From Gemmata obscuriglobus (GTDB lineage Bacteria > Planctomycetota > Planctomycetia > Gemmatales > Gemmataceae), in assembly GCF_008065095.1 (NCBI RefSeq), contig NZ_CP042911.1, positions 6,000,001 through 6,032,000 of the forward strand: a DNA stretch of 32,000 nucleotides, read 5' to 3'. The position numbers and the translations under genes are program-made. Numbering within the stretch: position 1 is the first letter of the stretch; every line of letters starts with the position of its first letter. Below the pieces are notes generated by a model. The model was given only the letters and a program-made list of their open reading frames with translations. It was not told the DNA's origin and searched no databases. Shown in pieces: positions 12,804 to 25,659 of this stretch.

Positions 12804-12807
12804 GAGG
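12803..12807 (+). promoter_or_regulatory. GGAGG Shine-Dalgarno-like element overlapping the pglW stop; probable original pglX RBS, now displaced by the cassette insertion
   Basis: TAGGAGGAAG at 12801-12810 lies immediately left of the inverted repeat. Joining the sequence outside both repeats gives TAGGAGGAAG+ACCCTTCTCTTATG, which places GGAGG 14 nt (a long spacer) upstream of the pglX ATG. Confidence 0.4.
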
Positions 12808-12810
12808 AAG

Positions 12811-13260
12811 CTCCCGCAAAGTCGCAAAGACGCAGAGAGAAACAGAAATGACCGAGAACGAAATTGCAACAGCTGTCGTCGATGCTGCGTTCCAGATCCA
12901 CACCAAACTCGGCCCGGCCTGCTCGAAAGCGTTTACCAGGCGGTCATGGTTCACGAACTCGCGCGACGCGGCCTGTCGGTCGCACACGAGGTTCCGGTCC
13001 CGGTGATCTGGGAGGGTTTGCGCCTGGAGGCCGGGTTCCGGGCCGACATCATCGTGGACGGTCGGGGCGTCATCGAGTTGAAGTCGGTGGAGGCGGTGGC
13101 CCCGGTCCATCCGAAGCAACTCCGTACCTACCTCCGGCTCACCGGCTGCAAACTTGGGCTTCTGGTCAACTTCAACGTAAACCTGATCAAGGACGGCATC
13201 ACCCGCGTGGTGAACGGTCTCTGATCTTGATTCCTTTGCGTCTTTGCGACTTTGCGGGAG
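12811..13260 (+). mobile_element. 450-bp cassette bounded by perfect 24-bp inverted repeats, carrying a GxxExxY-family gene
   Basis: CTCCCGCAAAGTCGCAAAGACGCA at 12811-12834 is exactly the reverse complement of 13237-13260 (checked base by base). The repeat is built from tandem (N)CGCAAAG octamers. A third, related copy pair lies at 16171-16243. Confidence 0.7.
12848..13224 (+). pseudogene. GxxExxY protein (PD-(D/E)XK nuclease superfamily), disrupted by a 1-nt deletion
   Basis: ATG at 12848 gives MTENEIATAVVDAAFQIHTKLGP, then the frame is lost. Track ORF 12946..13224 continues as MVHELARRGLSV...GFRADIIVDGRGVIELKSVEAVAPVHPKQLRTYLRLTGCKLGLLVNFNVNLIKDGITRVVNGL. Adding one G in GGCCCGG/CCTG (about 12917) restores GPGLLESVYQAVMVHEL, the family signature. 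Confidence 0.8.
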
Positions 13261-13271
13261 ACCCTTCTCTT

Positions 13272-16200
13272 ATGATCGACCGCACCGCGTTCCTGGCCGA
13301 CGCGCAGAAGATCGTCGCCCGGCTGGAGAAGGACCTGCGCGCCCGGTGCGACGACATGCCCGAAGTCGGGCGGGCCGTCGGGTCCGAGTACCGCACCGCG
13401 AAAGACGCCGGCCGCACCGGGCAGACGCTCGAAGAGTGGCGGGCCGACGCCATCACCCAGCAGGCCGTCGCCTGGGTGCTGTCGTGCGTGTTCGTGCGGT
13501 TCCTGGAGGACAACCGGCTCATCGACCCGCCGAAGATCAGCGGGCCGGTCCCGCCGGAGGGCGAGAAGGGTGAGAACCGGCTGGCCCGTGCCCGCGACGA
13601 GCACGAACTGTTCTTCACCGGCGCACGCCGGGGGAGCGAGTTCACCGACCGCGAGTACCTGCTGTCCGTGTTCGACGAGCTGGCGAAGCGGCCGGGCACG
13701 AAGGACCTGTACGGCCCGCACAACCCGATCCGGGCGATCCCGAACTGGCTGTCGCCGGACGCCGCGAAGGACATCCTGCTGCCGTTCTTCCAGAAGATCG
13801 ACGCCGGGTCCGGCCTACTCGTCCACGACTTCACCGACCCGTCATTCGACACCCGCTTCCTCGGCGACCTGTACCAGGACCTCTCGGAGGCGGCCCGCAA
13901 GAAGTACGCCCTGCTCCAGACGCCGGTGTTCGTGGAGGAGTTCATCCTCGACCGCACCCTGCTACCGGCGATCGAGACGTTCGGCCTCGCCACGGTGAAG
14001 ATGATCGACCCGGCCTGCGGCAGTGGCCACTTCCTGCTCGGTGGGTTCAACAAGCTGCTGGAACTGTGGGTGAAAAAGGAGCCGGGCACGCCGCCGCGGG
14101 AGTTGGTGCAGCGAGCACTCGACGCGATCCACGGCGTGGACCTGAACCCCTACGCGGTGGCCATCGCTCGGTTCCGGTTGCTGCTGGCGGCGTGGCAGGC
14201 GGCCGGGGTGACGAGCCTGAAGAACGCCCCGGACTTCAAGCTGAACCTGGCCTGCGGCGACTCGCTGTTGCACGGCGGCCGGTCGGTGCAGAAGACACTC
14301 GACGAGGAGGTATTCGGGCACACTTACCAGCCCGAAGACCCGGTCGAACTGGAGCGATTGCTGCGCCCCGGCACCTACCACGCGGTGGTCGCCAACCCGC
14401 CATACATCACCCCGAAAGATCGCGGGCTTTGCGACCAGTACCGTGATCGGTATTCCGCCTGCCACCGTCAGTATTCGTTATCCGTACCGTTCATGCAGCG
14501 TCTTTTTGAACTAGCATGCGCAAATGGTTTTATTGGCCAGATCACGGCCAATTCATTCATGAAGCGGGAATTTGGCAAGAAGATTGTCGAGGCATTTTTC
14601 CCCCTGATAGACCTGACCCACATCATCGATAGCAGTGGGGCCCACATTCCAGGTCACGGTATTCCGACGGTGATACTTTTCGGTCGTAACCGCCCCCCGG
14701 TTGCCACAACCCTTCGTGCCGTCATGGGGATTCGAGGCGAACCGTGCGTGCCAGCTAACCCAGCGACAGGTCCAGTATGGTCTTCGATTGAGCAGCAGGT
14801 CGATCAGCCAGGGTCTCAGGGGAAGTTCGTTAGCGTTTCTGATGCAGAACGGGCCGTTTTTCTGAAACATCCTTGGAGCATCGGAGGTGGTGGGGTCGCC
14901 GACGCAAAAGAAACCATCGATCAGGTTTCTAACACTTGCCTCGCATCAATAGTTGAATCGCTTGGGAGGACGGTATCGACCCAGGGAGATGACGTCTTCG
15001 TTGTGCCCACGGCGCAAGCACGTCGGAGTGGCATCGTTACGGGCCACTACCGTCCACTTGTGCGTGGCGAAGATGTCAGGGATTGGCAGGCTAAAGCCGA
15101 TCTTGCAGTGTTGTTCCCGTACGACACAAACCTACTTCCGATACCCGATGACTTGTCAGCAACTGTGCTCCGCTACCTGTGGCCTGCTAAAGCAGTGCTG
15201 GCTTCAACTTTGATGTTTGGTGACAAGACGAAGGTGCAAACTGGATTAAGGTGGTTTGAGTATGGCCAGTTCATCGCCGATCGCTTGCGGAATCGTATCG
15301 CCCTTGTTTACAGCGAAGTAGCCACGCACAACCACTTCGCTTTCGACCGCGGGAGCAGAGTCTTCAATCGTACTGCTCCTATCATCCTGCTTTCCAGTTC
15401 TGTCACGGAAGACGGGCATTTCGCCCTTCTTGGTTTGCTGAACAGCTCGGTCGCAGGCTTTTGGCTCCGACAAGTCTGCCACGATAAAGGCAGCAGCGGG
15501 ATCACTGGCGGCATAAAAGTGGAAGCCTGGGATCGTTTCTTTGCATTCAATGGGACAAATACTAATCGATTTCCGCTCCCTGACGCACGCCCACGAGGGC
15601 TTGCATTTCGGCTCGACGCTTTCGCGCGCAACATCGCGGACAATCAGCCTGCCAGTGTCATTGCTAGATGGGTCGATGGTTTATCGCTCTCGTCTTTACT
15701 CGACAGTTCTGAAGCCACGTGCCGCCGTTGCCGAGGGACAATGATACGGCTGCAAGAAGACCTCGACTGGGAGTGCTACCGCCTCTATGGGCTGTCCGCT
15801 GACGGCCTCACCGACTCACAATGGGAGACCCGCGACTTGCCGGTCAAGCTCGGTGAGCGGGCGTTCGAGATCGTCCTCGCCCGCAAGATGCGCGATGAGG
15901 GCTTGGAAACGACGTGGTTCGCCCGGCACGGCTCGACCCCGATCACCGAGCTACCCGCGCACTGGCCGCCGGACTACCGGAAGCTGGTCGAACGCCGCAT
16001 TGAGGCCATCGCGGCCAACCCGCAGATCGCCCTGATCGAGCAGCCGGAGTACAAGCGGCGGTGGAACGACACCCCGTGGGCCGAGAAGGTCACCGCCGCC
16101 CTGCACGACTGGCTCCTCGCCCGGCTGGAGTCGTACTTCGACATTGATGGGAGGATGCGAGAAGATGAGAATCTCCCGCAAAGTCGCAAAGGCGCAAAGA

Positions 16201-17075
16201 CGGAAGGTTCTTCTCTTGGCGACTCTGCGGCTTTGCGGGAGATTCGTCTTTATCCGCTCACTCGAATCGCCGACGTGGCGTCGAAGGACGCCGAGTTCCG
16301 CGAAGTGGGCCGACTCTACCGCGAGGGGCGGATCGACTTCGACGTAACGAAGCTGGTCACCGAACTGGTCGAGGCCGAGAGCGTCCCGCTCCTGCCAGTG
16401 CTGCGGTACAAACCGACGGGGTTGGATAAGCGGCTAGCCTGGGAGCGAACCTGGGATCTGCAACGCCGCGAGGACGCCATCGACGCCCGCGTCGCCGGCA
16501 AGTCGGTCGATGTCGGTGCCGGCGGCTGGACGCACCAGAAAGACGACGGCAAGTCGCCGCTGAACCCGGCGCAGGCGAGCCTGCTCAAGCAGTACGTCGT
16601 CGACCCGAACACCCCGCAGTCGATCCCGGTGCCGCCGAAGTACAAGTCGGCAGACTTCCAGAAGGGCGACTACTGGCGTCTCCGCGGCGGCCTCGACGTG
16701 CCGAAGGAGCGGTGGGTACTATTCCCGCACTGCGGCGGGGCCGACGGGCTGCCACTGGTCGCCTGGGCCGGGTACGATCACCTGCAACTGGCTAAGGCGA
16801 TCGCGACCCACTACGTCCACGTGCAGGAGCAGGAGGGCGGCCGCGACGACCCGCGGCTGGTGCCGCTGCTGGCGGCGATCTGCCAACTGCTCCCGTGGCT
16901 GAAGCAGTGGCACAACGAGATGGACGAGGAGTTCGGCTCCCGGATGGGCGACTACTACGAGGGGTTCGTCTCGGAGGAGGCCCGCGGGATGGGCAAGACG
17001 GTGGACGAGGTCTGCACTTGGCAGCCTCCTGCCGGCGGGAACGGCCGGAGCGGCCGCGGCCGGAGAGCAAAGTAG
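13272..17075 (+). CDS. pglX: BREX adenine-specific DNA methyltransferase PglX
   Basis: The ATG at 13272 (MIDRTAFLADAQK) lies within track ORF 12864..17075. AdoMet motif IDPACGSGHFLL is at about 14004. Catalytic motif VVANPPYITPK has NPPY at 14394-14405. The size (1267 aa) and the position between pglW and pglY fit PglX. Confidence 0.9.
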   Translation: MIDRTAFLADAQKIVARLEKDLRARCDDMPEVGRAVGSEYRTAKDAGRTGQTLEEWRADAITQQAVAWVLSCVFVRFLEDNRLIDPPKISGPVPPEGEKGENRLARARDEHELFFTGARRGSEFTDREYLLSVFDELAKRPGTKDLYGPHNPIRAIPNWLSPDAAKDILLPFFQKIDAGSGLLVHDFTDPSFDTRFLGDLYQDLSEAARKKYALLQTPVFVEEFILDRTLLPAIETFGLATVKMIDPACGSGHFLLGGFNKLLELWVKKEPGTPPRELVQRALDAIHGVDLNPYAVAIARFRLLLAAWQAAGVTSLKNAPDFKLNLACGDSLLHGGRSVQKTLDEEVFGHTYQPEDPVELERLLRPGTYHAVVANPPYITPKDRGLCDQYRDRYSACHRQYSLSVPFMQRLFELACANGFIGQITANSFMKREFGKKIVEAFFPLIDLTHIIDSSGAHIPGHGIPTVILFGRNRPPVATTLRAVMGIRGEPCVPANPATGPVWSSIEQQVDQPGSQGKFVSVSDAERAVFLKHPWSIGGGGVADAKETIDQVSNTCLASIVESLGRTVSTQGDDVFVVPTAQARRSGIVTGHYRPLVRGEDVRDWQAKADLAVLFPYDTNLLPIPDDLSATVLRYLWPAKAVLASTLMFGDKTKVQTGLRWFEYGQFIADRLRNRIALVYSEVATHNHFAFDRGSRVFNRTAPIILLSSSVTEDGHFALLGLLNSSVAGFWLRQVCHDKGSSGITGGIKVEAWDRFFAFNGTNTNRFPLPDARPRGLAFRLDAFARNIADNQPASVIARWVDGLSLSSLLDSSEATCRRCRGTMIRLQEDLDWECYRLYGLSADGLTDSQWETRDLPVKLGERAFEIVLARKMRDEGLETTWFARHGSTPITELPAHWPPDYRKLVERRIEAIAANPQIALIEQPEYKRRWNDTPWAEKVTAALHDWLLARLESYFDIDGRMREDENLPQSRKGAKTEGSSLGDSAALREIRLYPLTRIADVASKDAEFREVGRLYREGRIDFDVTKLVTELVEAESVPLLPVLRYKPTGLDKRLAWERTWDLQRREDAIDARVAGKSVDVGAGGWTHQKDDGKSPLNPAQASLLKQYVVDPNTPQSIPVPPKYKSADFQKGDYWRLRGGLDVPKERWVLFPHCGGADGLPLVAWAGYDHLQLAKAIATHYVHVQEQEGGRDDPRLVPLLAAICQLLPWLKQWHNEMDEEFGSRMGDYYEGFVSEEARGMGKTVDEVCTWQPPAGGNGRSGRGRRAK
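16171..16243 (+). repeat. 73-nt solo inverted-repeat (MITE-like) copy of the cassette terminal repeat, embedded in the pglX reading frame
   Basis: ATCTCCCGCAAAG (16171-16183) pairs perfectly with CTTTGCGGGAGAT (16231-16243), and the stem extends imperfectly beyond that. The left arm CTCCCGCAAAGTCGCAAAGGCGCAAAGA matches the 12811 repeat. It is translated as ..NLPQSRKGAKTEGSSLGDSAALREI.. with no stop. Confidence 0.75.
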
Positions 17076-17101
17076 GCGACCTCCAATCAGACAGGGCGAT
17101 C

Positions 17102-18370
17102 ATGTTCATCACGACGCTGGAGCTGGAGAACGTCCGCACGTTCGCGAAGGCGAACCTGGACTTCGTCCACCCGGACCTGGAGTACGCACCGGCGAAGACG
17201 CCGCTAGACAAGCTGAAAAAGCGACTTCCCCGTCCGCGACTGCCGAACGTGAACCTGCTGCTCGGCGACAACGGTTCGGGCAAGACGACGCTTCTGCGGG
17301 CCATCGCGATGTCCGCCCTCGGCCCGAGCGTGACCAGCCCTTCGGCTGGAATCCGGGACCCGGGGCTGGTTCGGCGGGGCGCGGACCTGCCGAAGAATGC
17401 GAAGGCACGCCTCGTGAGTGCGTTCGGGTTACACCCCCAAGACCGGGCCCCAGAAGGGGCGGTCGCACGGGGGGAACTTGAGGTCGGGAAGCGGGGCGAC
17501 ACCGAGGAGTTCAGGTTCCTCGATCCGGACGAACACGTGTGGGAGCCGGTCTTCGAGGAGAAGAACGACGCGTTCCTCGTGGTCGGTTACGGGGCCACTC
17601 GTCGCGTGGAGCAAGCCGATCGGTTTGACATGGGGTCGCGGACCAAGACCCGGTTCATCCGCGGACAGCGCATCGCCAGCCTCTACGAGGACGGGTTCTC
17701 GCTCATCCCGCTGACCTACTGGTTGCCCGACTTGCAGAAGTCCAACAAAGGGCGATATACCCAGGTCGTCCACCTCCTCAAACGGCTGATCGGACCCGGC
17801 CACTACACGTTCACCGAAGAGCTAGAGCGGGGCGACTACCTCTTCGAGCGAGGCGGTATGAAGATCCCGTTCCGGGCACTTTCCGACGGTTACCGGGCCT
17901 TCATCGGGTGGGTCGGGGACCTGTTATACCACGTGTGCTACGGCGCCCCGTCCGGGAAGAAACTGGACGAGGGGTCGGGGATCGTACTGGTGGACGAGAT
18001 CGACCTGCACCTGCACCCGCGGTGGCAGATGAAGGTCATCCCGACGATCGCGAAGGCACTGCCCCGGATGCAGTTCGTGTTCACGTCGCACAGCCCCCTC
18101 GTGGCCGGCAGCCTCGAATGGATGAACATCATCACGCTGAAGACGAACAACAAGACCAACCGCACCAAAGTTGGACGTCTCCAGAGGAGCATTCACGGGC
18201 TCGACGCGGATCAGATCCTGCTGAGCGACCTTTTTGGGCTGACCAGTACGCGGGCCGAAGCCAAGACGACCCAGCTTCACAAGCTGACGGCTCAAGCCCG
18301 AGAGGGCGATGACGCCGCGGCCCTCCAAATCGTCCGAGAACTCAGTCGTGGGTTGGAGGAGTCGCCTTGA
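17102..18370 (+). CDS. AAA_15/AAA_21-type ABC-like ATPase, Septu PtuA-like
   Basis: ATG at 17102 (MFITTLELENVRTF). Walker A LLGDNGSGKTTLLRAI, signature-like LSDGYRAF, Walker B IVLVDEIDLHLHPRWQ, H-loop FVFTSHSP. Its stop overlaps the start of the downstream HNH gene. Confidence 0.8.
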   Translation: MFITTLELENVRTFAKANLDFVHPDLEYAPAKTPLDKLKKRLPRPRLPNVNLLLGDNGSGKTTLLRAIAMSALGPSVTSPSAGIRDPGLVRRGADLPKNAKARLVSAFGLHPQDRAPEGAVARGELEVGKRGDTEEFRFLDPDEHVWEPVFEEKNDAFLVVGYGATRRVEQADRFDMGSRTKTRFIRGQRIASLYEDGFSLIPLTYWLPDLQKSNKGRYTQVVHLLKRLIGPGHYTFTEELERGDYLFERGGMKIPFRALSDGYRAFIGWVGDLLYHVCYGAPSGKKLDEGSGIVLVDEIDLHLHPRWQMKVIPTIAKALPRMQFVFTSHSPLVAGSLEWMNIITLKTNNKTNRTKVGRLQRSIHGLDADQILLSDLFGLTSTRAEAKTTQLHKLTAQAREGDDAAALQIVRELSRGLEESP

Positions 18371-19254
18371 TCCGCATCGTCGTCACCGAAGCCGCCCTAC
18401 GGGCCAGAATTGAGGAACTCAAGGCCGGCTGGGAGGGGCGGATGAAGGCGCTCGTCACGGCCCTCAGGGGCAACGACGATCCCGAATTCCAGAACGAGTG
18501 GAGCGACATCAAAGAGGCGTACATCGAATTCCAGCACTCGAAGTGCGCGTTCTGCGAAAAGCCCCTGGAGGGCAAGATCGAACAGGACGTGGAGCACTTC
18601 CGGCCAAAGGGGGCCGTGGTCGCTTGGCCGGTGCCCGGTGACTTGGCCGATGAGGTTCGGAAAGCCGGGTTCCGGGTTGTTCAGCCACCCAGAGGGTCGA
18701 AGGGATACAAGTACCTCGCGTACCATCCGCTCAACTACCTGACGGCGTGCAAAACGTGCAACTCGATTAGAAAGAAGAACTACTTCCCGATCGCGGGCCG
18801 CCGTAGGCTCGGCGGACGCGCGATCGCTGACCTCGCGGGCGAGCAAGCCTATTTGATTTACCCACTCTCGGACCTCGACGCGGACCCGGAGCACTTGATC
18901 GAGTTCATCGGCATTACGCCTCGTCCCAAAGCCGGCTTGACGGTCTTTGAACGACTCCGCGCACGCGTGACGATCGAATTCTTCGGCCTGGACAACGTAT
19001 CCGAGCGGAAGGATCTGCTCATCGACCGATTCGAGACGCTAGAAAAAGTCTACCTTGCACTGAAGGGGCGGACGGAATTTGCCACAGCGGCCGACCGCAA
19101 CAGGGCCGACCAGGTGGTGACGGCTTACCAGACCAGCCGGAGGCGGCATACGAACTGTATCAAACATTTCGTTGCCCTGTTTACCCGGCATCCGGAGCAA
19201 GCCGAGCAACTATATCAGGACGCGGTTACCTACCTGAAAACGGTCTCCAGTTGA
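18367..19254 (+). CDS. HNH endonuclease of the TIGR02646 / Septu PtuB-like type
   Basis: TTG start at 18367 overlaps the ATPase stop (TTGA). Motifs: KCAFCEKPLEG..EQDVEHFRPKG ... LNYLTACKTCNSIRKKNYFP (CxxC..H..CxxCN HNH pattern). A downstream TIEFFGLDNVSERKDLLIDR segment is also typical of this family. Confidence 0.75.
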   Translation: MIRIVVTEAALRARIEELKAGWEGRMKALVTALRGNDDPEFQNEWSDIKEAYIEFQHSKCAFCEKPLEGKIEQDVEHFRPKGAVVAWPVPGDLADEVRKAGFRVVQPPRGSKGYKYLAYHPLNYLTACKTCNSIRKKNYFPIAGRRRLGGRAIADLAGEQAYLIYPLSDLDADPEHLIEFIGITPRPKAGLTVFERLRARVTIEFFGLDNVSERKDLLIDRFETLEKVYLALKGRTEFATAADRNRADQVVTAYQTSRRRHTNCIKHFVALFTRHPEQAEQLYQDAVTYLKTVSS

Positions 19255-19276
19255 CCCGCTCCCGTCGGACAAGATC

Positions 19277-22200
19277 ATGACATTGCTGCGCGAGCTGATC
19301 GACATCCCCGAACACGTCCGCAAGGGCGACTTCGTCCTCCGCCTGTCCGAGGGTGTGGTCGACCCGGCCGGGACGTTGGGGGAGTACGTCGTCACCCCCG
19401 AACTGGTCCGGTGCTTCGACCAGGCCCTCGACTTCATCCGGGCCGCGGTCACCGGCCGGACGAGCAAAGCGACCTACCTGCACGGGTCGTTCGGGTCCGG
19501 CAAGTCGCACTTCATGGCCGTGCTGCACCTGATCCTCCAGGGCAACGCGCAGGCCCGCGGCATCCCCGAACTCGCACCGGTGATCGCCAAGCACAACGAC
19601 TGGCTGGCCGGGAAGAGGTTCCTGCTGGTGCCCTACCACATGATCAGTGGGGCGCACAACAGCATGGAGAGCGGCATCCTCGGCGGGTACGCCGACTTCA
19701 TCCGCCGCACCCGACCGGACGCTCCCGTGCCCGGCGTGTTCCTCGCCAAGGGGCTGTTCGAGGACGCCCAGCGGCAGCGGCGGCGGGACGGCGACGAGAA
19801 GTTCTTCGCCGAGCTGAACGCCGGCCGGGGCAACGAGCAGGCGTCGGGCTGGGGCGACCTCGAAAGCAGTTGGGACGCGGCCCGGTTCGAGGCGGCGATC
19901 GACGCCGACCCCGGTTCCGAGGAGCGGACCCGGCTGGTGAGCGACCTCGTGGGGACGTTCTTCCAGTCCTACGCGTCGGTGGCGCACGGGGGCCGGGAGG
20001 CGTACCTGTCGCTGGACAAGGGGCTGTGCGTGCTCAGCCAGCACGCCCGCGACCTGGGGTTCGACGCCCTCCTGCTGTTCCTCGACGAACTGATCCTGTG
20101 GCTGGCCACGCGGTCGGTGGACCTCGACTTCGTCAAGCGGGAGGCGGCCAAGCTCACCACCCTGGTCGAGGCGCAGACGCCCGACCGGCCGATCCCCGTG
20201 GTCAGCTTCGTCGCCCGCCAGCGGGATCTGCGCAAGCTGATCGGGGACCACGTTGCCGGGGCCGAGCGGCTGAACTTCAGCGACTCGCTCGACTGGCAGG
20301 AGGGGCGGTTCAGCACCATCACGCTGGAGGACCGGAACCTCCCGGCGATCGCCGAGAAGCGCGTCTTGAAGCCTGTCAGCGAGGCCGCGAAGGGCGAGCT
20401 GGACGCCGCCTTCGAGAAGACCGCGAAGGTCCGCGACGTGGTGTGGAACACGCTCCTGGCGAACGAGGGTGACAAGCGGATGTTCCGCCAGGTGTACCCG
20501 TTCAGCCCGGCCCTGGTGCAGACGCTCATCGCCGTGTCGAGCGTCCTCCAGCGGGAGCGCACCGCCCTCAAGGTCATGCGACAGCTCCTGGTCGACCAGC
20601 GAGATTCGCTCCAGGTCGGCGACCTCGTGCCCGTCGGCGACCTGTTCGACACCGTGGCCCACGGGGACGAGGCGTTTTCGGCGGAGATGGCGATCCACTT
20701 CGAGAACGCCAAGCGGCTGTACCACCAGAAGCTGCTCCCGGTGCTGGAGAAGCAGCACGGGCGGGCGGAGGAGCTGGAGCAACTGCCCTGGGAGAACCCG
20801 AAGCGGGTCGCGTTCCGCAACGACGACCGGCTGGTGAAGACGCTCCTGCTGGCCGCACTGGTGCCGGGCGTGGAGACGCTCCGCGGGCTCACCGCCGAGC
20901 GGCTGGCCGCCCTCAACCACGGGACGATCAAGACCCCGATCCCCGGTCGGGAAGCTCAAGAGGTGCTGCGCCGGGTCAAGACGTGGGCCGCGGGCGTCGG
21001 CGAGATCCGCGTCGGCGAGGGCCAGAACCCGACGATCACGGTGCAGCTCACCGGAGTCGATACCGAGGCCATCCTGGCCAAGGCCCGCGGCGAGGACAGT
21101 GCCGGCAACCGCCGCCGCCGCGTCCGCCAGATGCTGTTCGAGCAGCTCGCCATTGAGGACCCGGATAAGTTGTTCTTCACCTACGGGTTCCGGTGGCGGA
21201 ACACCGAACGGGCCTGCGAGCTGATCTTCGCCGACAAGCACGTCCGCGACCTGCCCGACACGTCGCTGGAGTCGGAGGACGGGTGGCGGCTGGTGATCGA
21301 CGTGCCGTTCGGGGAGCCCGGCCACGGCCCCCGCGACGGCATCGGCCGGCTCCAGCAGTTCCGCCACGCCCACCCGAACGGGACGCGCACGCTGGTCTGG
21401 ATACCGAACTACTTCAGCCAGGACGCCCTCCGCGACCTGGGGCTCCTGGTAGTGCTGGAGCACATCCTCGCCGGGGAGCGGTTCTCCGGGTACGCCTCGC
21501 ACCTGAACCCGCAGGACAAGCTGGCCGCCCGCAACCTGCTGGAGAACCAGAGCAGCGAACTGCGGCAGCGGGTGCGGCACCACCTGGAGGCGGCCTACGG
21601 GCTGGACGCCCTGCTGCCGGGCTCGCTGGACGCCACCCAGGAACTGGAGCCGCACGAGCAGTTCCAGTCCCTGAAGAGCGGGTTCGACCCGCAGCCCCCG
21701 GCTGCGGCCACACTCCGGGCGGCGATGGAGCAACTGCTCGACCAGGCGTTGGCCGACGACTACCCGGCGCACCCGCGGTTCGAGGCCGAGGTGCGGGCGG
21801 GGAACCTGCGGAAGGTGTACGACGTGGCCAGTCAGGCCGCCCGACGGGAGGACGGGCGGGTCGAGGTGGAGAAGACGCTCCGGCCGCTCCTGCGTCAGAT
21901 CGCCAACCCGCTCCTGCTGGGCGAGATGGGGCCGGACGCCACCCACTTCGTCCTCGGCCAGCACTGGAAGAACCACTTCACGCGCAAGATCTCGCAGGCC
22001 GGCGGTGCGGCCCTGACGGTGGGCCAGTTGCGGAAGTGGACCGACGACCCGAAGCCGATGGGGCTGCCCAAGGAGGCCGCGAACCTCGTCATCCTCGTGT
22101 TCGCCGAGCAGACGAACCGGACGTTTTTCCTGCACGGCGGTGCCACCGATGCCACCCTCTCCAACCTCTCCGACGCACTGGAGCTGCGGGAGTGGAAGGG

Positions 22201-22978
22201 GCCGTCGGAGGCCGTTTGGGATGCGGCCGTGCGGCGGGGCGGGAGCATCATGGGGGTGGCAGTCTCCCCGCTCCTCAAGTCGAACAACGTCAGCAGCCTG
22301 GCGAATCAGGTGAAGGCGAAGGCGACGGAGTGCCGGCCCGGCTTGCAGCTCTACGCCCGCCGACTGCGGGAGCGGCTCACGCCGATGAGACTCGCGGACT
22401 CGCCGCGTCTGAAGACCGCCCAGGCGACGGCCACGCTCGCGGAGCGACTGGCGGCGGGCGACGGGGACGGGCTGGTGGGGGTGCTGGCGACCGCCGAGGT
22501 GGCGACCTCCGAGGCCGCGATGAGCACCTGTCTGGGCCGGGCCGCCGAACTGGCCGTGGCCCTCGACTCGTTCAGCTGGGAGATCCTCGACGCGGTCTCG
22601 AAGCTCGACGGCAGCCAGCGAGCCGCGGCCGACGAGGTCGTCCGAACGGTCCGGGAGGCCCTCGCGGCCGACGAGCACGCGGTCGCGCTCGCCCCGACGC
22701 TGAAGGAGGCGCAGTCGAAGGCCGTGCGCCTGCTCACCGCCCGGCCACCCGCCCCGCCCGCTGTTCCCCCGCCGGCCGTTCCCCCACCATCCGACCCGCC
22801 GGTCGTCGTGACTCCCGTGCCAGTCACCCCGAAGACGGTGCTGCGGGGGGAGAAGGCCGGGCTCACCCTGGAGGAGGCCCAGACCCAACTCGACCGACTG
22901 AAGGAGGAGTTGTCCGCCGGGCAGACGGTGACCGTCAGCATGGCCTGGAAGGTCGAGTCAGGAGGACCCGGAACGTGA
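19277..22978 (+). CDS. pglY: BREX P-loop ATPase PglY (BrxC-like)
   Basis: 1233-aa ORF starting at an ATG. Walker A YLHGSFGSGKSHFMAV at about 19484-19510. LLFLDELILW is Walker B-like. Position between pglX and pglZ. The proline-rich segment PPAPPAVPPPAVPPPSDPP lies near the C-terminus. Confidence 0.88.
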   Translation: MTLLRELIDIPEHVRKGDFVLRLSEGVVDPAGTLGEYVVTPELVRCFDQALDFIRAAVTGRTSKATYLHGSFGSGKSHFMAVLHLILQGNAQARGIPELAPVIAKHNDWLAGKRFLLVPYHMISGAHNSMESGILGGYADFIRRTRPDAPVPGVFLAKGLFEDAQRQRRRDGDEKFFAELNAGRGNEQASGWGDLESSWDAARFEAAIDADPGSEERTRLVSDLVGTFFQSYASVAHGGREAYLSLDKGLCVLSQHARDLGFDALLLFLDELILWLATRSVDLDFVKREAAKLTTLVEAQTPDRPIPVVSFVARQRDLRKLIGDHVAGAERLNFSDSLDWQEGRFSTITLEDRNLPAIAEKRVLKPVSEAAKGELDAAFEKTAKVRDVVWNTLLANEGDKRMFRQVYPFSPALVQTLIAVSSVLQRERTALKVMRQLLVDQRDSLQVGDLVPVGDLFDTVAHGDEAFSAEMAIHFENAKRLYHQKLLPVLEKQHGRAEELEQLPWENPKRVAFRNDDRLVKTLLLAALVPGVETLRGLTAERLAALNHGTIKTPIPGREAQEVLRRVKTWAAGVGEIRVGEGQNPTITVQLTGVDTEAILAKARGEDSAGNRRRRVRQMLFEQLAIEDPDKLFFTYGFRWRNTERACELIFADKHVRDLPDTSLESEDGWRLVIDVPFGEPGHGPRDGIGRLQQFRHAHPNGTRTLVWIPNYFSQDALRDLGLLVVLEHILAGERFSGYASHLNPQDKLAARNLLENQSSELRQRVRHHLEAAYGLDALLPGSLDATQELEPHEQFQSLKSGFDPQPPAAATLRAAMEQLLDQALADDYPAHPRFEAEVRAGNLRKVYDVASQAARREDGRVEVEKTLRPLLRQIANPLLLGEMGPDATHFVLGQHWKNHFTRKISQAGGAALTVGQLRKWTDDPKPMGLPKEAANLVILVFAEQTNRTFFLHGGATDATLSNLSDALELREWKGPSEAVWDAAVRRGGSIMGVAVSPLLKSNNVSSLANQVKAKATECRPGLQLYARRLRERLTPMRLADSPRLKTAQATATLAERLAAGDGDGLVGVLATAEVATSEAAMSTCLGRAAELAVALDSFSWEILDAVSKLDGSQRAAADEVVRTVREALAADEHAVALAPTLKEAQSKAVRLLTARPPAPPAVPPPAVPPPSDPPVVVTPVPVTPKTVLRGEKAGLTLEEAQTQLDRLKEELSAGQTVTVSMAWKVESGGPGT
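22961..22966 (+). promoter_or_regulatory. Shine-Dalgarno GGAGGA for pglZ
   Basis: GGAGGA lies 8 nt upstream of the GTG at 22975, inside the end of pglY. Confidence 0.5.
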
Positions 22979-25659
22979 CGCAGCCGGCACCTACGTTCGG
23001 CCAGATCCGGGCCAAGGTCCAGGCCGTCCGCCGCAAGATCCCGGACGCCAGTGCGGTGGGCATCCACGCGCCAGGCCGGTACGCGGGCGACCGCGTCCGC
23101 CGGGAGGGTGCGGACACCTACCGGATCGAGCAGTGCGACTCACCGCTCGCGGCCCGCATCGCCCTGCTCGGCGACGAGCCGGCGGCGACGGTCACCGTGC
23201 TGGTCACCGGCCTCGCCGACCAGGATCTGGGCGACGACGTGCTGGTCCGGCTCGCGGGCCGCAGGCTCTACCCGCTGGACCCGTGGCAGATCGTCAAGGA
23301 ACTGTTCCAGGCGCACGCCGTCGATCCCCGGCTGCGCGGCCAGGGGTGGATCGCCGACCGGCTGCTGGAACTCGCCACCGCCGCGGGGGTGCCGGCCGCC
23401 GCGGGGGGCTACCTGGACGCGGAAATCGTCTGGCCCATGCTCCTCCAGCGGCTGCTCGGCCTGGAGGGGGACCGGCCCGACCTTCCCCTCCTGCTTCGCT
23501 GGTCGGCCGTCCCCGAGAACGTCGGACGCTTCCGCCGACTGCCGGACGAGCCCCGGCGGGCGATCGAGGGGTGGCTGTCCGCCTCGCTGGGGCCGACCGC
23601 GGCAGCCGTTCTCCGGTGCGCCGGTGCTACCGACCAACCCGACGCCCTGCCCGTCGGCCTGGCCCTCGGCGTCGTCCACCACCCGGCGGCCGCCGGGCAG
23701 CTGGACCGGGCCGCGGGGCGGCTGGAACGGTTCCTGGGCGGCCCCACCCCCGAACCCGCGGTCACCGACCGCTGGCACGCCGCCGCCACCGAGGCGGTGC
23801 GACTGCTGGACGCCGACACGCGGGCGAGGAACGGGCTGCTGCACCGTGCGGAGGAGGTGCTCCGGGAGGTCCAGGCGGACGAGTTCGCGCACCTGACCGA
23901 CGTGCTCCCGCGGGGGTTCGAGCAGCGACTGGCCCGGCTCGGCGGGCTGCTCGCGGTGACGGCCGACGAGCCGCCGGCGGTCGCCGAACTGACCGCCGCC
24001 CGCGACGCGGTCCGCCGGCACGACCAGGCCCGACGGGAGCCGCGGCGGGTGGAGCGGGTCGACATGGCCCTGCGGCTGGCACGGTGGCTGGCTGCCGCCG
24101 GCCCCGAAGTCGCCCCGCGGTCGCTGGGCGCGGCGGCGGCCGAGTACGTGGCACAGGGCAGCTTCGTGGACTGGGCCCGCTCGGCCCTCCGGGCGGGCGA
24201 CCCGGTTCGGGAGCTGTCGGAGGGGTACGCCCGGCTGCTGGCCCGGGTCGCCGCCCGGCGGGAGGCCCAGAACCGCCGCTTCGCCGAACTCCTGCGGGAC
24301 CAGACCGCCGCGGCGGCCCGGCCCGCCGACGTCACCCCCGTCGAGGCCGTCCTCGACCAACTGGTCGCCCCGCTCGCGGCCCTGGCCCCGGTGCTGGTCG
24401 TCCTCCTGGACGGGATGAGCCCGGCCGTGTCGCGGGAGCTGACGGCCGACCTGACCCGGCTGGACTGGGCGTCGCTCGGCCCCGGCGGGCGCGCACTGCC
24501 GCCCGGCCTGGCGGCGATCCCGTGCGTCACCGAGGCGTCGCGGACCAGCCTGTTCTGCGGCCGGCTCGCCACCGGGTCCGTCGCGGACGAGGCGGCCGGG
24601 TTCGCCGCGCACGCCGCCCTCAAGCTACACTGCCGCGCCGGTCAGCCGCCGGTCCTGTTCCACAAGATCGCTCTCACCGGACCCGGCGACGCCGCCCTGG
24701 CGGCCAACGTCCGGGAGGCGGTCGCCTCGGCGCAGAAGCGGGTCGTCGGGGTCGTGGTGAACGCGGTCGACGACCACCTCCTCAAGGGCGAGCAGCTCGA
24801 CCTGCGGTGGACGCGGGACGAGATCAAGGTCCTGCTGCCGCTCCTGTACGAGGCCCGGTCGGCCCGGCGGGTGGTCGTGCTCCTGAGCGACCACGGGCAC
24901 CTGCTCGACGACCAGACGCGAGCCGCGGACGGGGACGGCGGGGAGCGGTGGCGTTCGGACGACGGGCGTCCGGGCGAGGGCGAACTGGCCCTCCGCGGGC
25001 CGCGGGTTCTGCTCGGCGACGGCCACCGGCTGATCGCCCCGTGGACCGAACGGCTCCGTTATGTGGGCCGGAAGAATGGCTACCACGGCGGGTTGACCCC
25101 CCAGGAGATGTTGATCCCGATCACCGTGCTGGCGGCCGGCGACCTCCGCCCGGACGGGTGGGTGGACGCCCCCGACCCGGCCCCAGACTGGTGGGAGCCG
25201 GCTCCGCCCCTCGCTGCTCTGCCGGCAGTCGTGTTGCCGCCGAAACCCTCGGCCCCGAAGGTCCCGACGAGCCTGTTCGACGACGAAGAAGAGACCCCGG
25301 CAGTACCTCCCGTTGCCCCTGCGGTCGCATCGTCCCCAATTTGGGTGGCCGCCCTGCTGGCGTCGCCGGTTTTCACCGAGCAGAAGAAGCTGGGCGGGCG
25401 GGCCGTGCCGGACGACGCCACCTTCGCCGGGCTGCTGGCCGCCCTCGACGAGGCCGGCGGCAAGTTGACCTCGGCCGCCCTCGCCCGGCGGATGAGCTTG
25501 CCACCGTTCCGCCTTCGGGGGCTGCTGGCGGTCTGTCAGCGGGTCCTGAACGTCGACGGCTTCGCGGTCCTGGGCCGGGACGACCCGTCCGACACCGTTG
25601 AACTGAACCGGTCACTGCTGTTGCGGCAGTTCGACCTCATCGCGGAGGACCGCCCGTGA
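22975..25659 (+). CDS. pglZ: BREX alkaline-phosphatase-fold protein PglZ
   Basis: GTG at 22975 is in frame with track ORF 21193..25659 and overlaps the pglY stop (GTGA). PglZ-type motifs: VLVVLLDGMSPAVSREL, IPCVTEASRTSLFCG, VVVNAVDDHL, VVVLLSDHGH, GYHGGLTPQEMLIPITVL. The 5' part of the track ORF lies inside pglY and is rejected. Confidence 0.88.
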   Translation: MTQPAPTFGQIRAKVQAVRRKIPDASAVGIHAPGRYAGDRVRREGADTYRIEQCDSPLAARIALLGDEPAATVTVLVTGLADQDLGDDVLVRLAGRRLYPLDPWQIVKELFQAHAVDPRLRGQGWIADRLLELATAAGVPAAAGGYLDAEIVWPMLLQRLLGLEGDRPDLPLLLRWSAVPENVGRFRRLPDEPRRAIEGWLSASLGPTAAAVLRCAGATDQPDALPVGLALGVVHHPAAAGQLDRAAGRLERFLGGPTPEPAVTDRWHAAATEAVRLLDADTRARNGLLHRAEEVLREVQADEFAHLTDVLPRGFEQRLARLGGLLAVTADEPPAVAELTAARDAVRRHDQARREPRRVERVDMALRLARWLAAAGPEVAPRSLGAAAAEYVAQGSFVDWARSALRAGDPVRELSEGYARLLARVAARREAQNRRFAELLRDQTAAAARPADVTPVEAVLDQLVAPLAALAPVLVVLLDGMSPAVSRELTADLTRLDWASLGPGGRALPPGLAAIPCVTEASRTSLFCGRLATGSVADEAAGFAAHAALKLHCRAGQPPVLFHKIALTGPGDAALAANVREAVASAQKRVVGVVVNAVDDHLLKGEQLDLRWTRDEIKVLLPLLYEARSARRVVVLLSDHGHLLDDQTRAADGDGGERWRSDDGRPGEGELALRGPRVLLGDGHRLIAPWTERLRYVGRKNGYHGGLTPQEMLIPITVLAAGDLRPDGWVDAPDPAPDWWEPAPPLAALPAVVLPPKPSAPKVPTSLFDDEEETPAVPPVAPAVASSPIWVAALLASPVFTEQKKLGGRAVPDDATFAGLLAALDEAGGKLTSAALARRMSLPPFRLRGLLAVCQRVLNVDGFAVLGRDDPSDTVELNRSLLLRQFDLIAEDRP

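What the first reader, a model, noticed from the sequence alone, without database searches (positions are those of the whole stretch)
17076..19276. Septu-like ATPase + HNH nuclease pair nested between pglX and pglY
A translationally coupled AAA_15/21 ATPase and TIGR02646-type HNH nuclease (PtuA/PtuB-like) sit inside the BREX operon, on the same strand, with only 26-nt and 22-nt spacers to pglX and pglY.

Hand-counted 60-nt samples give about 58-60% GC here, against about 68% for a pglY sample, which suggests separate acquisition. Both the ATPase and pglY starts sit in the identical heptamer GATCATG (17098-17104 and 19273-19279). Both are preceded by GACA (immediately in cgGACAaGATCATG, 4 nt upstream in caGACAgggcGATCATG). 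This looks like a duplicated initiation region left at an insertion junction.

No BREX nuclease effector is known. An operon-embedded ATPase-HNH module could therefore be either an independent nested defence or a co-opted effector.
Basis: partly seen in the sequence, partly recalled or inferred. Interest (0 to 1): 0.7.

Follow-up and report, generated by a model that had tools for sequence, protein, structure and literature searches.

The report
Septu defence pair nested in BREX-2
A two-gene anti-phage module (Septu: an ATPase plus an HNH nuclease) sits inside a larger anti-phage operon (BREX type 2) of Gemmata obscuriglobus; it is real and intact, but it is optional cargo in a known insertion hotspot, an arrangement already described in the literature.

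Summary
ptuA (17102-18370) and ptuB (18367-19254) lie on the + strand between pglX and pglY of a complete BREX-2 operon. The spacers are 26 and 22 nt, the genes overlap in TTGA, all catalytic motifs are intact, and GC3 is lower than in the BREX core (0.83/0.77 against 0.91-0.95).

The pair is accessory. The closest BREX-2 locus found (L166; PglY 97% identical, DNA syntenic on both sides) has pglX and pglY overlapping with no ptuAB. In 42 of 54 independent BREX-2 loci this junction holds other cargo, including toxin-antitoxin modules, GmrSD-like proteins, PARIS-like ATPases and PADLOC candidate systems.

The embedded PtuA proteins nevertheless form one well-supported clade (99/100 bootstraps). 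In that clade 10 of 13 informative members are embedded, against 0 of 39 outside it. The clade also contains free-standing pairs.

The "duplicated initiation region" idea fails. GATCATG is not enriched in the window, and the right-hand copy is absent from every related locus examined. The right part of the insert (PtuA C-terminus, ptuB and spacer) has a separate recombination history.

The claim that no BREX nuclease is known is outdated, because PglZ has been shown to be one. ABC-ATPase plus HNH pairs inside BREX loci, and embedding in general, are already published.

Verdict: an autonomous type I Septu carried as operon-embedded cargo, and a new member of a known kind.

The parts
8616..12803 (+). 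pglW (BREX-2 Ser/Thr kinase with an N-terminal NERD nuclease domain)
   Evidence: NCBIfam BREX_PglW 1688.8 bits against a cut-off of 990; Pfam NERD and Pkinase
12848..13221 (+). small PDDEXK_3 gene embedded between pglW and pglX, apparently frameshifted
   Evidence: tblastn with the intact L166 5833-6210 product gives two HSPs (92-95% identity) in different frames
13272..17075 (+). pglX (BREX-2 adenine methyltransferase). The true start is ATG 13272; the ORF-list start of 12864 is an over-extension.
   Evidence: NCBIfam BREX_2_MTaseX 1456.7 bits, with the profile starting at residue 144 of the long ORF. L166 PglX aligns from 13272.
14902..15741 (+). variable, low-GC block inside pglX (probable target-recognition region)
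   Evidence: GC 0.54 and GC3 0.55. It is the only part of pglX not alignable to L166 by blastn.
17052..19275 (+). segment present in the window but absent from the nearest BREX-2 locus L166, where 13 nt stand in its place
   Evidence: blastn L166 against the window: L166 9201-9986 matches 16266-17051, and L166 10000-17692 matches 19276-26971
17076..17101 (+). 26-nt spacer between pglX and ptuA. No terminator-like site on the + strand. It is conserved in L001.
17102..18370 (+). ptuA: Septu ABC-type ATPase, 422 aa. Walker A is G55-K61, the LSDGYR signature is 260-265, Walker B is D298/E299, and the H-loop is H330.
   Evidence: PADLOC PDLC00301 E=1.9e-141. The motifs are invariant in 20 homologues. 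PDB PtuA chains match at E=1e-19 to 1e-22. dN/dS against L001 is 0.125.
18190..19276 (+). module with a separate history: the PtuA C-terminal extension (about 55 aa), all of ptuB and the 22-nt spacer
   Evidence: Identity to L001 drops from about 88% to 40-70% here and returns to 95% at the pglY ATG
18367..19254 (+). ptuB: Septu HNH nuclease, 295 aa, with a TTG start overlapping the ptuA stop. Zinc ligands are C60, C63, C128 and C131. The catalytic residues are H77, N123 and N132.
   Evidence: PADLOC PDLC00318 E=1.5e-70. Invariant columns. H77 aligns with the His that is Ala in the variant chain 22bu_F. AlphaFold2 pLDDT is 92. The top 10 Foldseek hits are all PtuB chains.
19255..19276 (+). 22-nt spacer between ptuB and pglY; not conserved in any related locus
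19277..22978 (+). pglY (BREX-2 ATPase)
   Evidence: PADLOC BrxC-PglY 1484 bits, full length
22975..25659 (+). pglZ (BREX-2 phosphatase/nuclease family); GTGA overlap with pglY
   Evidence: NCBIfam BREX_PglZ_2 794 bits
25656..26969 (+). brxD
   Evidence: NCBIfam BREX_BrxD 639.9 bits
26966..29068 (+). brxHI helicase
   Evidence: PADLOC BrxHI 986 bits

Best explanation
The pair is a complete, selectively maintained type I Septu system: the PtuA ABC-type ATPase plus the PtuB HNH nuclease. It is carried as optional cargo in the pglX-pglY junction of a BREX type 2 operon in Gemmata obscuriglobus. Across phyla that junction is a hotspot where defence cassettes are swapped, most likely by recombination in the conserved flanking pglX 3' and pglY 5' sequences.

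Shown: identity, intact motifs, accessory status, the hotspot, the mosaic history, and purifying selection.

Inferred:
- ptuAB is read through from the BREX promoter. The evidence is same strand, 26-nt and 22-nt spacers, and no terminator-like site.
- PtuA and PtuB form the usual complex through the PtuA C-terminal extension and the PtuB C-terminal domain.
- The complex acts on its own as a second, abortive-type layer. As in characterised Septu systems, the ATPase keeps the HNH nuclease off until infection. The nuclease then cuts tRNA (tRNA-Tyr in E. coli Septu) and/or nicks DNA, stopping phages that escape or inhibit BREX.
For: Identity:
- Full-length PADLOC PtuA and PtuB matches.
- Invariant Walker A, signature, Walker B and H-loop in PtuA.
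- Invariant CxxC...H...N...CxxCN in PtuB.
- PtuB fold matches solved PtuB chains.
- No reverse transcriptase and no Rfam RNA nearby, so it is not the retron type.

Accessory status:
- L166 (PglY 97% identical; DNA 91-95% identical on both sides) lacks the 2224-nt segment and has pglX overlapping pglY.
- L167 and L168 carry HTH plus PIN genes in the same slot, and in L169 the genes are adjacent.
- Of 54 independent BREX-2 loci, 11 have a gap of 200 nt or less and 42 have a gap above 600 nt. The gaps hold diverse defence cargo.

Autonomy:
- Members of the same PtuA clade (L092, L095) and of the wider family (L004, L005) are free-standing pairs. L004, L092 and L095 sit among housekeeping genes; L005 sits in a defence-rich neighbourhood.
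- The BREX core is complete both with and without ptuAB.

Functionality:
- dN/dS is 0.125 for ptuA, like the core genes at 0.10-0.24.

Mechanism from the literature:
- PtuA:PtuB forms a 6:2 complex, ATP inhibits the nuclease, and stand-alone Septu nicks plasmids (PMC12640716).
- Septu EcB88 cleaves the tRNA-Tyr variable loop and needs Walker A/B and HNH residues (PMC13096335).
- The PtuA C-terminal extension binds the PtuB C-terminal domain (PMC12819146).

Arrangement already described:
- Embedding in BREX, in the same orientation in 96.7% of cases (10.1101/2024.01.29.577857).
- OLD-family ABC ATPase plus HNH pairs inside BREX loci (PMC12839542).
Against: - All ten full-length embedded PtuA sequences fall in one clade with 99/100 bootstrap support: 10 of 13 informative members embedded, against 0 of 39 outside. 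This long association with BREX-2 could reflect functional coupling rather than simple co-transfer.
- No expression, interaction or phage data exist for this organism.
- Promoter types of Planctomycetes are not covered by the scan used.
- The substrate (tRNA or DNA) is extrapolated from E. coli systems that share only about 20% identity in PtuB.
Confidence: 0.75

Rival explanations
1. Guard or backup effector functionally wired to BREX-2. PtuAB would be held inactive by, or would sense the state of, a BREX component and fire when a phage inhibitor disables BREX. This would resemble PrrC with EcoprrI.
For: - The embedded PtuA sequences form a single clade with 99% bootstrap support that lives mostly in the pglX-pglY slot across Gemmataceae, Planctellipticum and Planctomycetaceae genomes.
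- Synonymous divergence of ptuA equals that of the adjoining pglX 3' end (0.44 against 0.42), so the two have travelled together.
- The literature proposes ABC-ATPase nuclease pairs as a backup layer of BREX (PMC12839542) and cites the PrrC precedent (10.1101/2024.01.29.577857).
Against: - The same clade contains free-standing pairs among housekeeping genes (L092, L095).
- A nearly identical BREX-2 operon works without the pair as far as gene content shows (L166).
- The slot holds many unrelated cargoes.
- No extra domain is detected in PtuA or PtuB relative to stand-alone relatives.
Confidence: 0.13
2. Core component of a BREX-2 subtype: the nuclease effector that BREX-2 needs.
For: Position inside the operon, same strand, tight spacing. 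Recurrence in at least 13 loci.
Against: - Absent from L166, L167, L168 and L169, the four close relatives chosen by PglY alone.
- Absent from 53 of 54 BREX-2 loci in the genome survey.
- BREX already has PglZ, a reported nuclease (PMC12205998), and the PglW NERD domain.
Confidence: 0.03
3. Recent single insertion that duplicated the initiation region (GACA...GATCATG) at both junctions.
For: The identical heptamer covers both start codons, with GACA upstream of each.
Against: - Not enriched: 14 of 100 shuffles reach the same count.
- No longer flanking repeat.
- L001 shares the left junction almost base for base but has a different right junction and a different ptuB (46% identical).
- L170, which carries the same ptuB type as the window, has GATC at neither junction.
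- GC3 of 0.77-0.83 and dS of 0.44 against L001 argue against a recent arrival.
Confidence: 0.04
4. Decaying passenger: the pair is no longer functional.
For: ptuB has a rare TTG start. ptuA is split in L001 and L170. The neighbouring small PDDEXK_3 gene is frameshifted.
Against: - Both window ORFs are full length against their profiles, with every catalytic residue in place.
- dN/dS is 0.125.
- The TTG position matches the conserved MIR N-terminus of homologues.
- L001 and L170 show multiple breaks in core genes too, as expected from error-prone assemblies.
Confidence: 0.05

Closest known systems
Type I (stand-alone) Septu, PtuA/PtuB (E. coli Septu, PDB 8EE4/8EE7/8EEA; Septu EcB88)
   Same: - Two co-oriented genes with overlapping stop and start.
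- ABC-type ATPase with Walker A, signature, Walker B and H-loop.
- HNH nuclease with a four-cysteine zinc site and a helical C-terminal domain.
- No reverse transcriptase.
- PADLOC Septu profiles match full length, and the PtuB fold matches.
   Different: - Sequence is distant from the characterised E. coli proteins. PDB PtuA matches cover only residues about 245-400, and PtuB is 13-20% identical over the aligned structure.
- PtuB is longer: 295 aa against 205-258.
- The pair sits inside another system's operon, with no detected promoter of its own.
- The trigger and substrate are unknown here.
Defence systems embedded in BREX, DISARM, type I RM and Hma (Payne et al. 2024, 10.1101/2024.01.29.577857), for example BrxU in pEFER BREX, Septu in Hma and PrrC in EcoprrI
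   Same: A known defence system nested between genes of a larger one on the same strand. The nested system also occurs outside the host system, and the slot holds varied cargo, including the PDC and HEC families defined in that work.
   Different: - The host here is BREX type 2 and the slot is specifically the pglX-pglY junction.
- The text and held supplements of that paper do not name Septu-in-BREX.
- Here the embedded PtuA proteins form one clade.
OLD-family ABC ATPase plus HNH pairs inside BREX loci, proposed as 'backup effectors' (PMC12839542, NAR 2026)
   Same: The same gene pair architecture in the same kind of location.
   Different: That survey does not call them Septu. It does not describe the presence/absence polymorphism, the clade structure or the module swap seen here. 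Whether this Gemmata locus is in its data could not be checked.
Type II Septu / retron I-A (Ec78/Eco7, Ec83/Eco4) PtuAB
   Same: Homologous ATPase and HNH proteins. The best structural matches of PtuB are these chains.
   Different: There is no reverse transcriptase or ncRNA here. The NCBIfam retron-type PtuA and PtuB equivalog cut-offs are missed by a wide margin: 119.7 against 500 bits, and 33.1 against 150 bits. PtuA lacks the N-terminal extension, at 422 aa against 550.

Membership tests
Septu (type I, PtuA+PtuB) | PtuA: ABC/SMC-like ATPase with intact Walker A lysine, signature motif, Walker B D-E and H-loop | tested here: met
   GDNGSGKT (K61), LSDGYR (260-265), VDEIDLH (D298, E299) and TSHSP (H330) are invariant in 20 homologues. 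Pfam AAA_21 scores 71.1 bits against a cut-off of 27.
Septu (type I, PtuA+PtuB) | PtuB: HNH (beta-beta-alpha-metal) nuclease with the catalytic His and Asn | tested here: met
   C60/C63, D74-E76-H77, N123 and C128/C131/N132 are invariant in 40 sequences. H77 aligns with the residue that is Ala in the variant PDB chain 22bu_F. The top 10 Foldseek matches are PtuB chains at probability 1.00.
Septu (type I, PtuA+PtuB) | Match to family profiles | tested here: met
   PADLOC PDLC00301 E=1.9e-141 (residues 1-420) and PDLC00318 E=1.5e-70 (residues 1-292)
Septu (type I, PtuA+PtuB) | ptuA immediately followed by ptuB on the same strand | tested here: met
   TTGA overlap at 18367-18370. The same 4-nt overlap occurs in L001, L002 and L003.
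Septu (type I, PtuA+PtuB) | Anti-phage protection that needs both the ATPase and the HNH activity | not testable with these tools
   Shown only for E. coli systems (PMC13096335, PMC12819146)
Septu (type I, PtuA+PtuB) | PtuA oligomer binding PtuB through the PtuA C-terminal extension and the PtuB C-terminal domain | not tested
   Indirect only: the PtuA C-terminal extension and ptuB were exchanged together relative to L001. No complex was modelled.
Type II Septu / retron I-A effector | Adjacent reverse transcriptase and msr/msd RNA; NCBIfam PtuA (NF041760) and PtuB (NF041761) equivalog scores | tested here: not met
   The neighbours are pglX and pglY. No Rfam match in the window. Scores are 119.7 against 500 bits and 33.1 against 150 bits.
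   25.8 bits against a cut-off of 52.15, matching only residues 46-86. UniRef nevertheless names the protein 'TIGR02646 family protein'.
BREX type 2 (host operon) | pglW, pglX, pglY, pglZ, brxD and brxHI together | tested here: met
   All six are found on one strand at 8616-29068
Embedded (nested) autonomous defence system | Lies between genes of a host system on the same strand, is absent from otherwise equivalent host loci, and also occurs outside the host system | tested here: met
   Window anatomy. Absent in L166. Free-standing in L004, L005, L092 and L095.
PrrC-type guard of its host system | Activity controlled by physical interaction with the host system's proteins | not testable with these tools
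   Only circumstantial clade association

The most novel reading that the evidence does not exclude
A distinct Septu lineage has become a long-term resident of the BREX-2 pglX-pglY slot in Planctomycetota and is functionally coupled to BREX-2. It would act as a guard that fires its HNH nuclease when BREX-2 is inhibited. The exchangeable unit formed by the PtuA C-terminal extension and PtuB would then be the part under diversifying pressure from phages.
Probability: 0.13. Interest if true: 0.6.

Novelty: new member of a known kind. Interest (0 to 1): 0.32.

Why it matters
This locus is not a missing BREX nuclease. Its value is as a clean natural example of how large defence operons carry swappable second-layer modules.

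- A near-isogenic pair of loci exists, with ptuAB (window, L001) and without it (L166). That pair defines the cassette boundaries to the base.
- One junction is used as a cargo slot across Planctomycetota, Cyanobacteria, Acidobacteriota and Proteobacteria.
- One Septu lineage is largely confined to that slot.
- The ATPase tail and the nuclease are exchanged as one unit.

These points give direct handles for testing whether embedded systems are only co-regulated passengers or are functionally coupled to their hosts. That question remains open in the embedding literature.

Tried and rejected
- Flanking repeats or an insertion scar. No direct repeat of 12 nt or more links the two junctions, and no IS-like inverted repeats flank the insert. 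GATCATG is not enriched.
- Internal promoter or terminator. No + strand terminator-like site lies between pglX and pglY. The one promoter-like hit (19251-19278) ends inside the pglY start codon, so it cannot give a normal pglY leader. The scan does not cover planctomycete promoters.
- A third Septu gene. The 440-aa ORFs just upstream of ptuA in L013 and L005 are unrelated to each other and match no PADLOC family.
- Retron or other RNA. No Rfam family and no tRNA were found in the window.
- Pfam on PtuB gave nothing. Sequence search of the PDB with PtuB alone was marginal (E=0.011), and a profile improved it only to E=3.8e-5. The fold comparison was needed.
- Looking for this exact case in the supplements of the two survey papers gave no usable hit. 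Li et al. 2024 (PMC12318543) is not held, so its results are cited through later papers.
- A first dN/dS run used a wrong frame for the pglX 3' end. It was redone in frame.
Full report
**What is there.**

The window comes from Gemmata obscuriglobus. PtuA and PtuB are 100% identical to proteins named from that species on a 9.03-Mb contig.

The + strand from 8616 to 29068 carries a complete BREX type 2 operon: pglW, pglX, pglY, pglZ, brxD and brxHI. Most of these genes are joined by 4-nt overlaps.

Two genes lie between pglX and pglY:
- ptuA, 17102-18370, 422 aa.
- ptuB, 18367-19254, 295 aa.

The pglX stop is at 17075 and the pglY ATG at 19277. The ORF list's pglX start of 12864 is an over-extension. 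The real start is ATG 13272.

**Identity.**

PtuA:
- It matches the PADLOC Septu profile PDLC00301 over its full length (E=1.9e-141).
- It passes the Pfam AAA_21 and AAA_15 cut-offs.
- Its Walker A (K61), LSDGYR signature, Walker B (D298, E299) and H-loop (H330) are invariant among 20 relatives.

PtuB:
- It matches PADLOC PDLC00318 over its full length (E=1.5e-70).
- It has no Pfam hit and only sub-threshold NCBIfam scores.
- The HNH core is nevertheless complete: C60/C63, D74-E76-H77, N123, and C128/C131/N132. These columns are invariant in 40 sequences.
- H77 aligns with the histidine that is alanine in the variant PDB chain 22bu_F.
- An AlphaFold2 model (pLDDT 92) has solved PtuB chains as its ten best PDB matches. 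Cas9 HNH domains follow.

No reverse transcriptase gene and no Rfam RNA are present. The retron-type NCBIfam equivalog cut-offs are missed by a wide margin. The pair is therefore a stand-alone (type I) Septu.

**Is it core or cargo?**

The three closest PtuA relatives on long contigs all lie between pglX and pglY of BREX-2 loci:
- L001, 86% identical.
- L002, 66% identical.
- L003, Planctellipticum variicoloris, 59% identical.

More distant relatives (53-55%) are free-standing pairs (L004, L005).

The closest BREX-2 locus found through PglY is L166 (PglY 97% identical).
- It has pglX and pglY overlapping, with nothing between them.
- At the DNA level it is syntenic with the window from the pglW start to the brxHI end, at 87-95% identity.
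- Window 17052-19275 (2224 nt) stands where L166 has 13 nt.

Three further relatives chosen by PglY alone also lack ptuAB. L167 and L168 carry an HTH plus PIN pair in the slot. In L169 the two genes are adjacent.

A genome-wide sample of 80 BREX-2 loci was fetched with a PglY profile.
- 54 independent loci have pglX followed by pglY on one strand.
- The gap is 200 nt or less in 11 of them and more than 600 nt in 42.
- Only one, L013, carries same-family ptuAB.
- The 99 gap ORFs hit many defence families: PDC-M28, PDC-S24, SoFic, NsnAB, HEC-05/GmrSD, AbiLi, AriA, PD-T4-2 and toxin-antitoxin modules.

Two caveats apply to this sample. Gap sizes come from tblastn extents. Some ORFs in high-GC DNA will be spurious.

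The junction is therefore a cargo hotspot, and ptuAB is one of many interchangeable loads.

**A BREX-2-associated Septu lineage.**

Eighty further loci were fetched from metagenomes with a PtuA profile and mapped with the BREX proteins. In a neighbour-joining tree of 76 full-length PtuA sequences:
- All ten embedded ones fall in one 17-leaf clade.
- That clade is recovered in 99 of 100 bootstraps.
- Among leaves with informative flanks, 10 of 13 inside the clade are embedded, against 0 of 39 outside (Fisher p=1.8e-8).

The clade also holds L092 and L095, which are free-standing pairs flanked by peptidase, ThuA and transporter genes. The lineage is strongly associated with the slot but does not depend on it.

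**History of the insert.**

Composition is distinct but not alien. GC3 is 0.83 for ptuA and 0.77 for ptuB, against 0.91-0.95 in the core.

Comparison with L001 shows three segments:
- About 88% nucleotide identity from the pglX 3' end through ptuA to about 18190.
- A fall to 40-70% through the last ~55 codons of ptuA, all of ptuB and the spacer.
- A return to 95% exactly at the pglY ATG.

PtuB identities to the window protein are bimodal: 60-77% in a few relatives and 41-48% in all others. This split is unrelated to PtuA identity.

The PtuA C-terminal extension is the part that clasps the PtuB C-terminal domain in solved complexes (PMC12819146). Exchange of the extension together with ptuB therefore makes structural sense. 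This last step is inference.

Synonymous divergence between the window and L001 also differs by segment:
- ptuA core, 0.44.
- pglX 3' end, 0.42.
- pglY and pglZ, 0.22 each.

The operon is a recombination mosaic, and ptuA has travelled with the pglX 3' end. dN/dS of ptuA is 0.125, within the range of the core genes (0.10-0.24).

**The GATCATG idea.**

The heptamer is at both start codons, but several results count against an insertion scar:
- It occurs 3 times in the window against 1.3 expected, and 14 of 100 shuffles reach that count.
- No longer repeat links the junctions.
- The left junction is conserved almost base for base in L001.
- The right-hand GATC is absent from L001, L002, L003, L013, L117 and L125.
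- L170 carries the window's ptuB type, yet it has GATC at neither junction.

Because the two junctions have different histories, a duplicated initiation region left by one insertion is not supported.

**How it most likely works.**

There is no + strand terminator-like site between pglX and pglY, and the spacing is tight. ptuAB is therefore probably transcribed with the BREX genes. This is inferred, and planctomycete promoters are not covered by the scan.

The mechanism is extrapolated from characterised systems:
- PtuA oligomers bind PtuB.
- ATP binding keeps the nuclease off.
- Stand-alone Septu nicks plasmid DNA (summarised in PMC12640716).

The likely role here is a second, abortive-type layer against phages that evade or inhibit BREX-2.

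**Comparison with what is known.**

Embedding of defence systems in BREX, DISARM, type I RM and Hma is described, with Septu commonly inside Hma and the same orientation in 96.7% of cases (10.1101/2024.01.29.577857).

A 2026 survey reports OLD-family ABC ATPases paired with HNH nucleases inside BREX loci and calls them backup effectors (PMC12839542).

PglZ is reported to be a metal-dependent nuclease (PMC12205998), and PglW here has a NERD domain. The premise that BREX lacks a nuclease no longer holds.

What may be new is modest:
- The near-isogenic pair of loci with and without ptuAB.
- The clade confined largely to the slot.
- The swap of the PtuA C-terminal extension together with ptuB.

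**Verdict.**

- Best explanation: an autonomous type I Septu carried as embedded cargo (confidence 0.75).
- Novelty: a new member of a known kind.
- Interest: about 0.3.
- Most novel reading not excluded: a guard function coupled to BREX-2, probability about 0.13.

Noticed in passing
window 14902-15741: A low-GC block inside pglX (GC 0.54, GC3 0.55, against 0.86-0.94 in the rest of the gene). It is the only part of pglX that does not align to the 87-92% identical L166 locus. It looks like a swapped target-recognition region, which would change the methylation specificity.
   Followed up: partly
window 12848-13221: A small PDDEXK_3-family gene is embedded between pglW and pglX. It is intact in L166 and L169 but split over two frames here (a frameshift or a sequencing error). 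It makes the ORF-list version of pglX look 136 codons too long.
   Followed up: partly
window 18190-19276, compared with L001 10780-11862: The last ~55 codons of ptuA, all of ptuB and the downstream spacer form a unit with a different history from the rest of ptuA. PtuB identities among relatives are bimodal (60-77% or 41-48%) whatever the PtuA identity.
   Followed up: partly
window 7200-8615, especially 7882-8064 (+): Synteny with L166 starts exactly at the pglW start. The small HTH_17/MerR gene that precedes pglW in L001, L002, L166, L167 and L168 has no match in the window. In its place is a lower-GC stretch with a 60-aa ORF ending in HYNKERPHQ, which resembles the C-terminus of a DDE (rve-type) transposase. 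The operon's upstream control region may have been replaced.
   Followed up: no
L166 17705-18868: A 387-aa ORF with no PADLOC match sits between brxD and brxHI in the nearest relative and is absent from the window. This is a second cargo slot in the same operon.
   Followed up: partly
L003 12309-14269; L013 6419-7741; L088 and L153 upstream of ptuA: The pglX-pglY slot can hold several cassettes at once. Planctellipticum has ptuAB plus a 186-aa ORF and a GmrSD_N/HNH (NsnA-like) protein. L013 has an unannotated 440-aa ORF before ptuA. L088 and L153 have 3-5 kb between pglX and ptuA.
   Followed up: partly
window 2040-6665 (-): A 1541-aa ORF with no Pfam or PADLOC family and only weak coiled-coil (SMC-like) similarity lies upstream of the BREX operon on the opposite strand.
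   Followed up: no
window 8616-25659 compared with L001 and L166: Synonymous divergence differs two- to three-fold between neighbouring genes of the operon: pglX 0.37-0.57, pglW 0.24-0.29, pglY and pglZ 0.14-0.22. This indicates frequent recombination within BREX-2 loci.
   Followed up: partly
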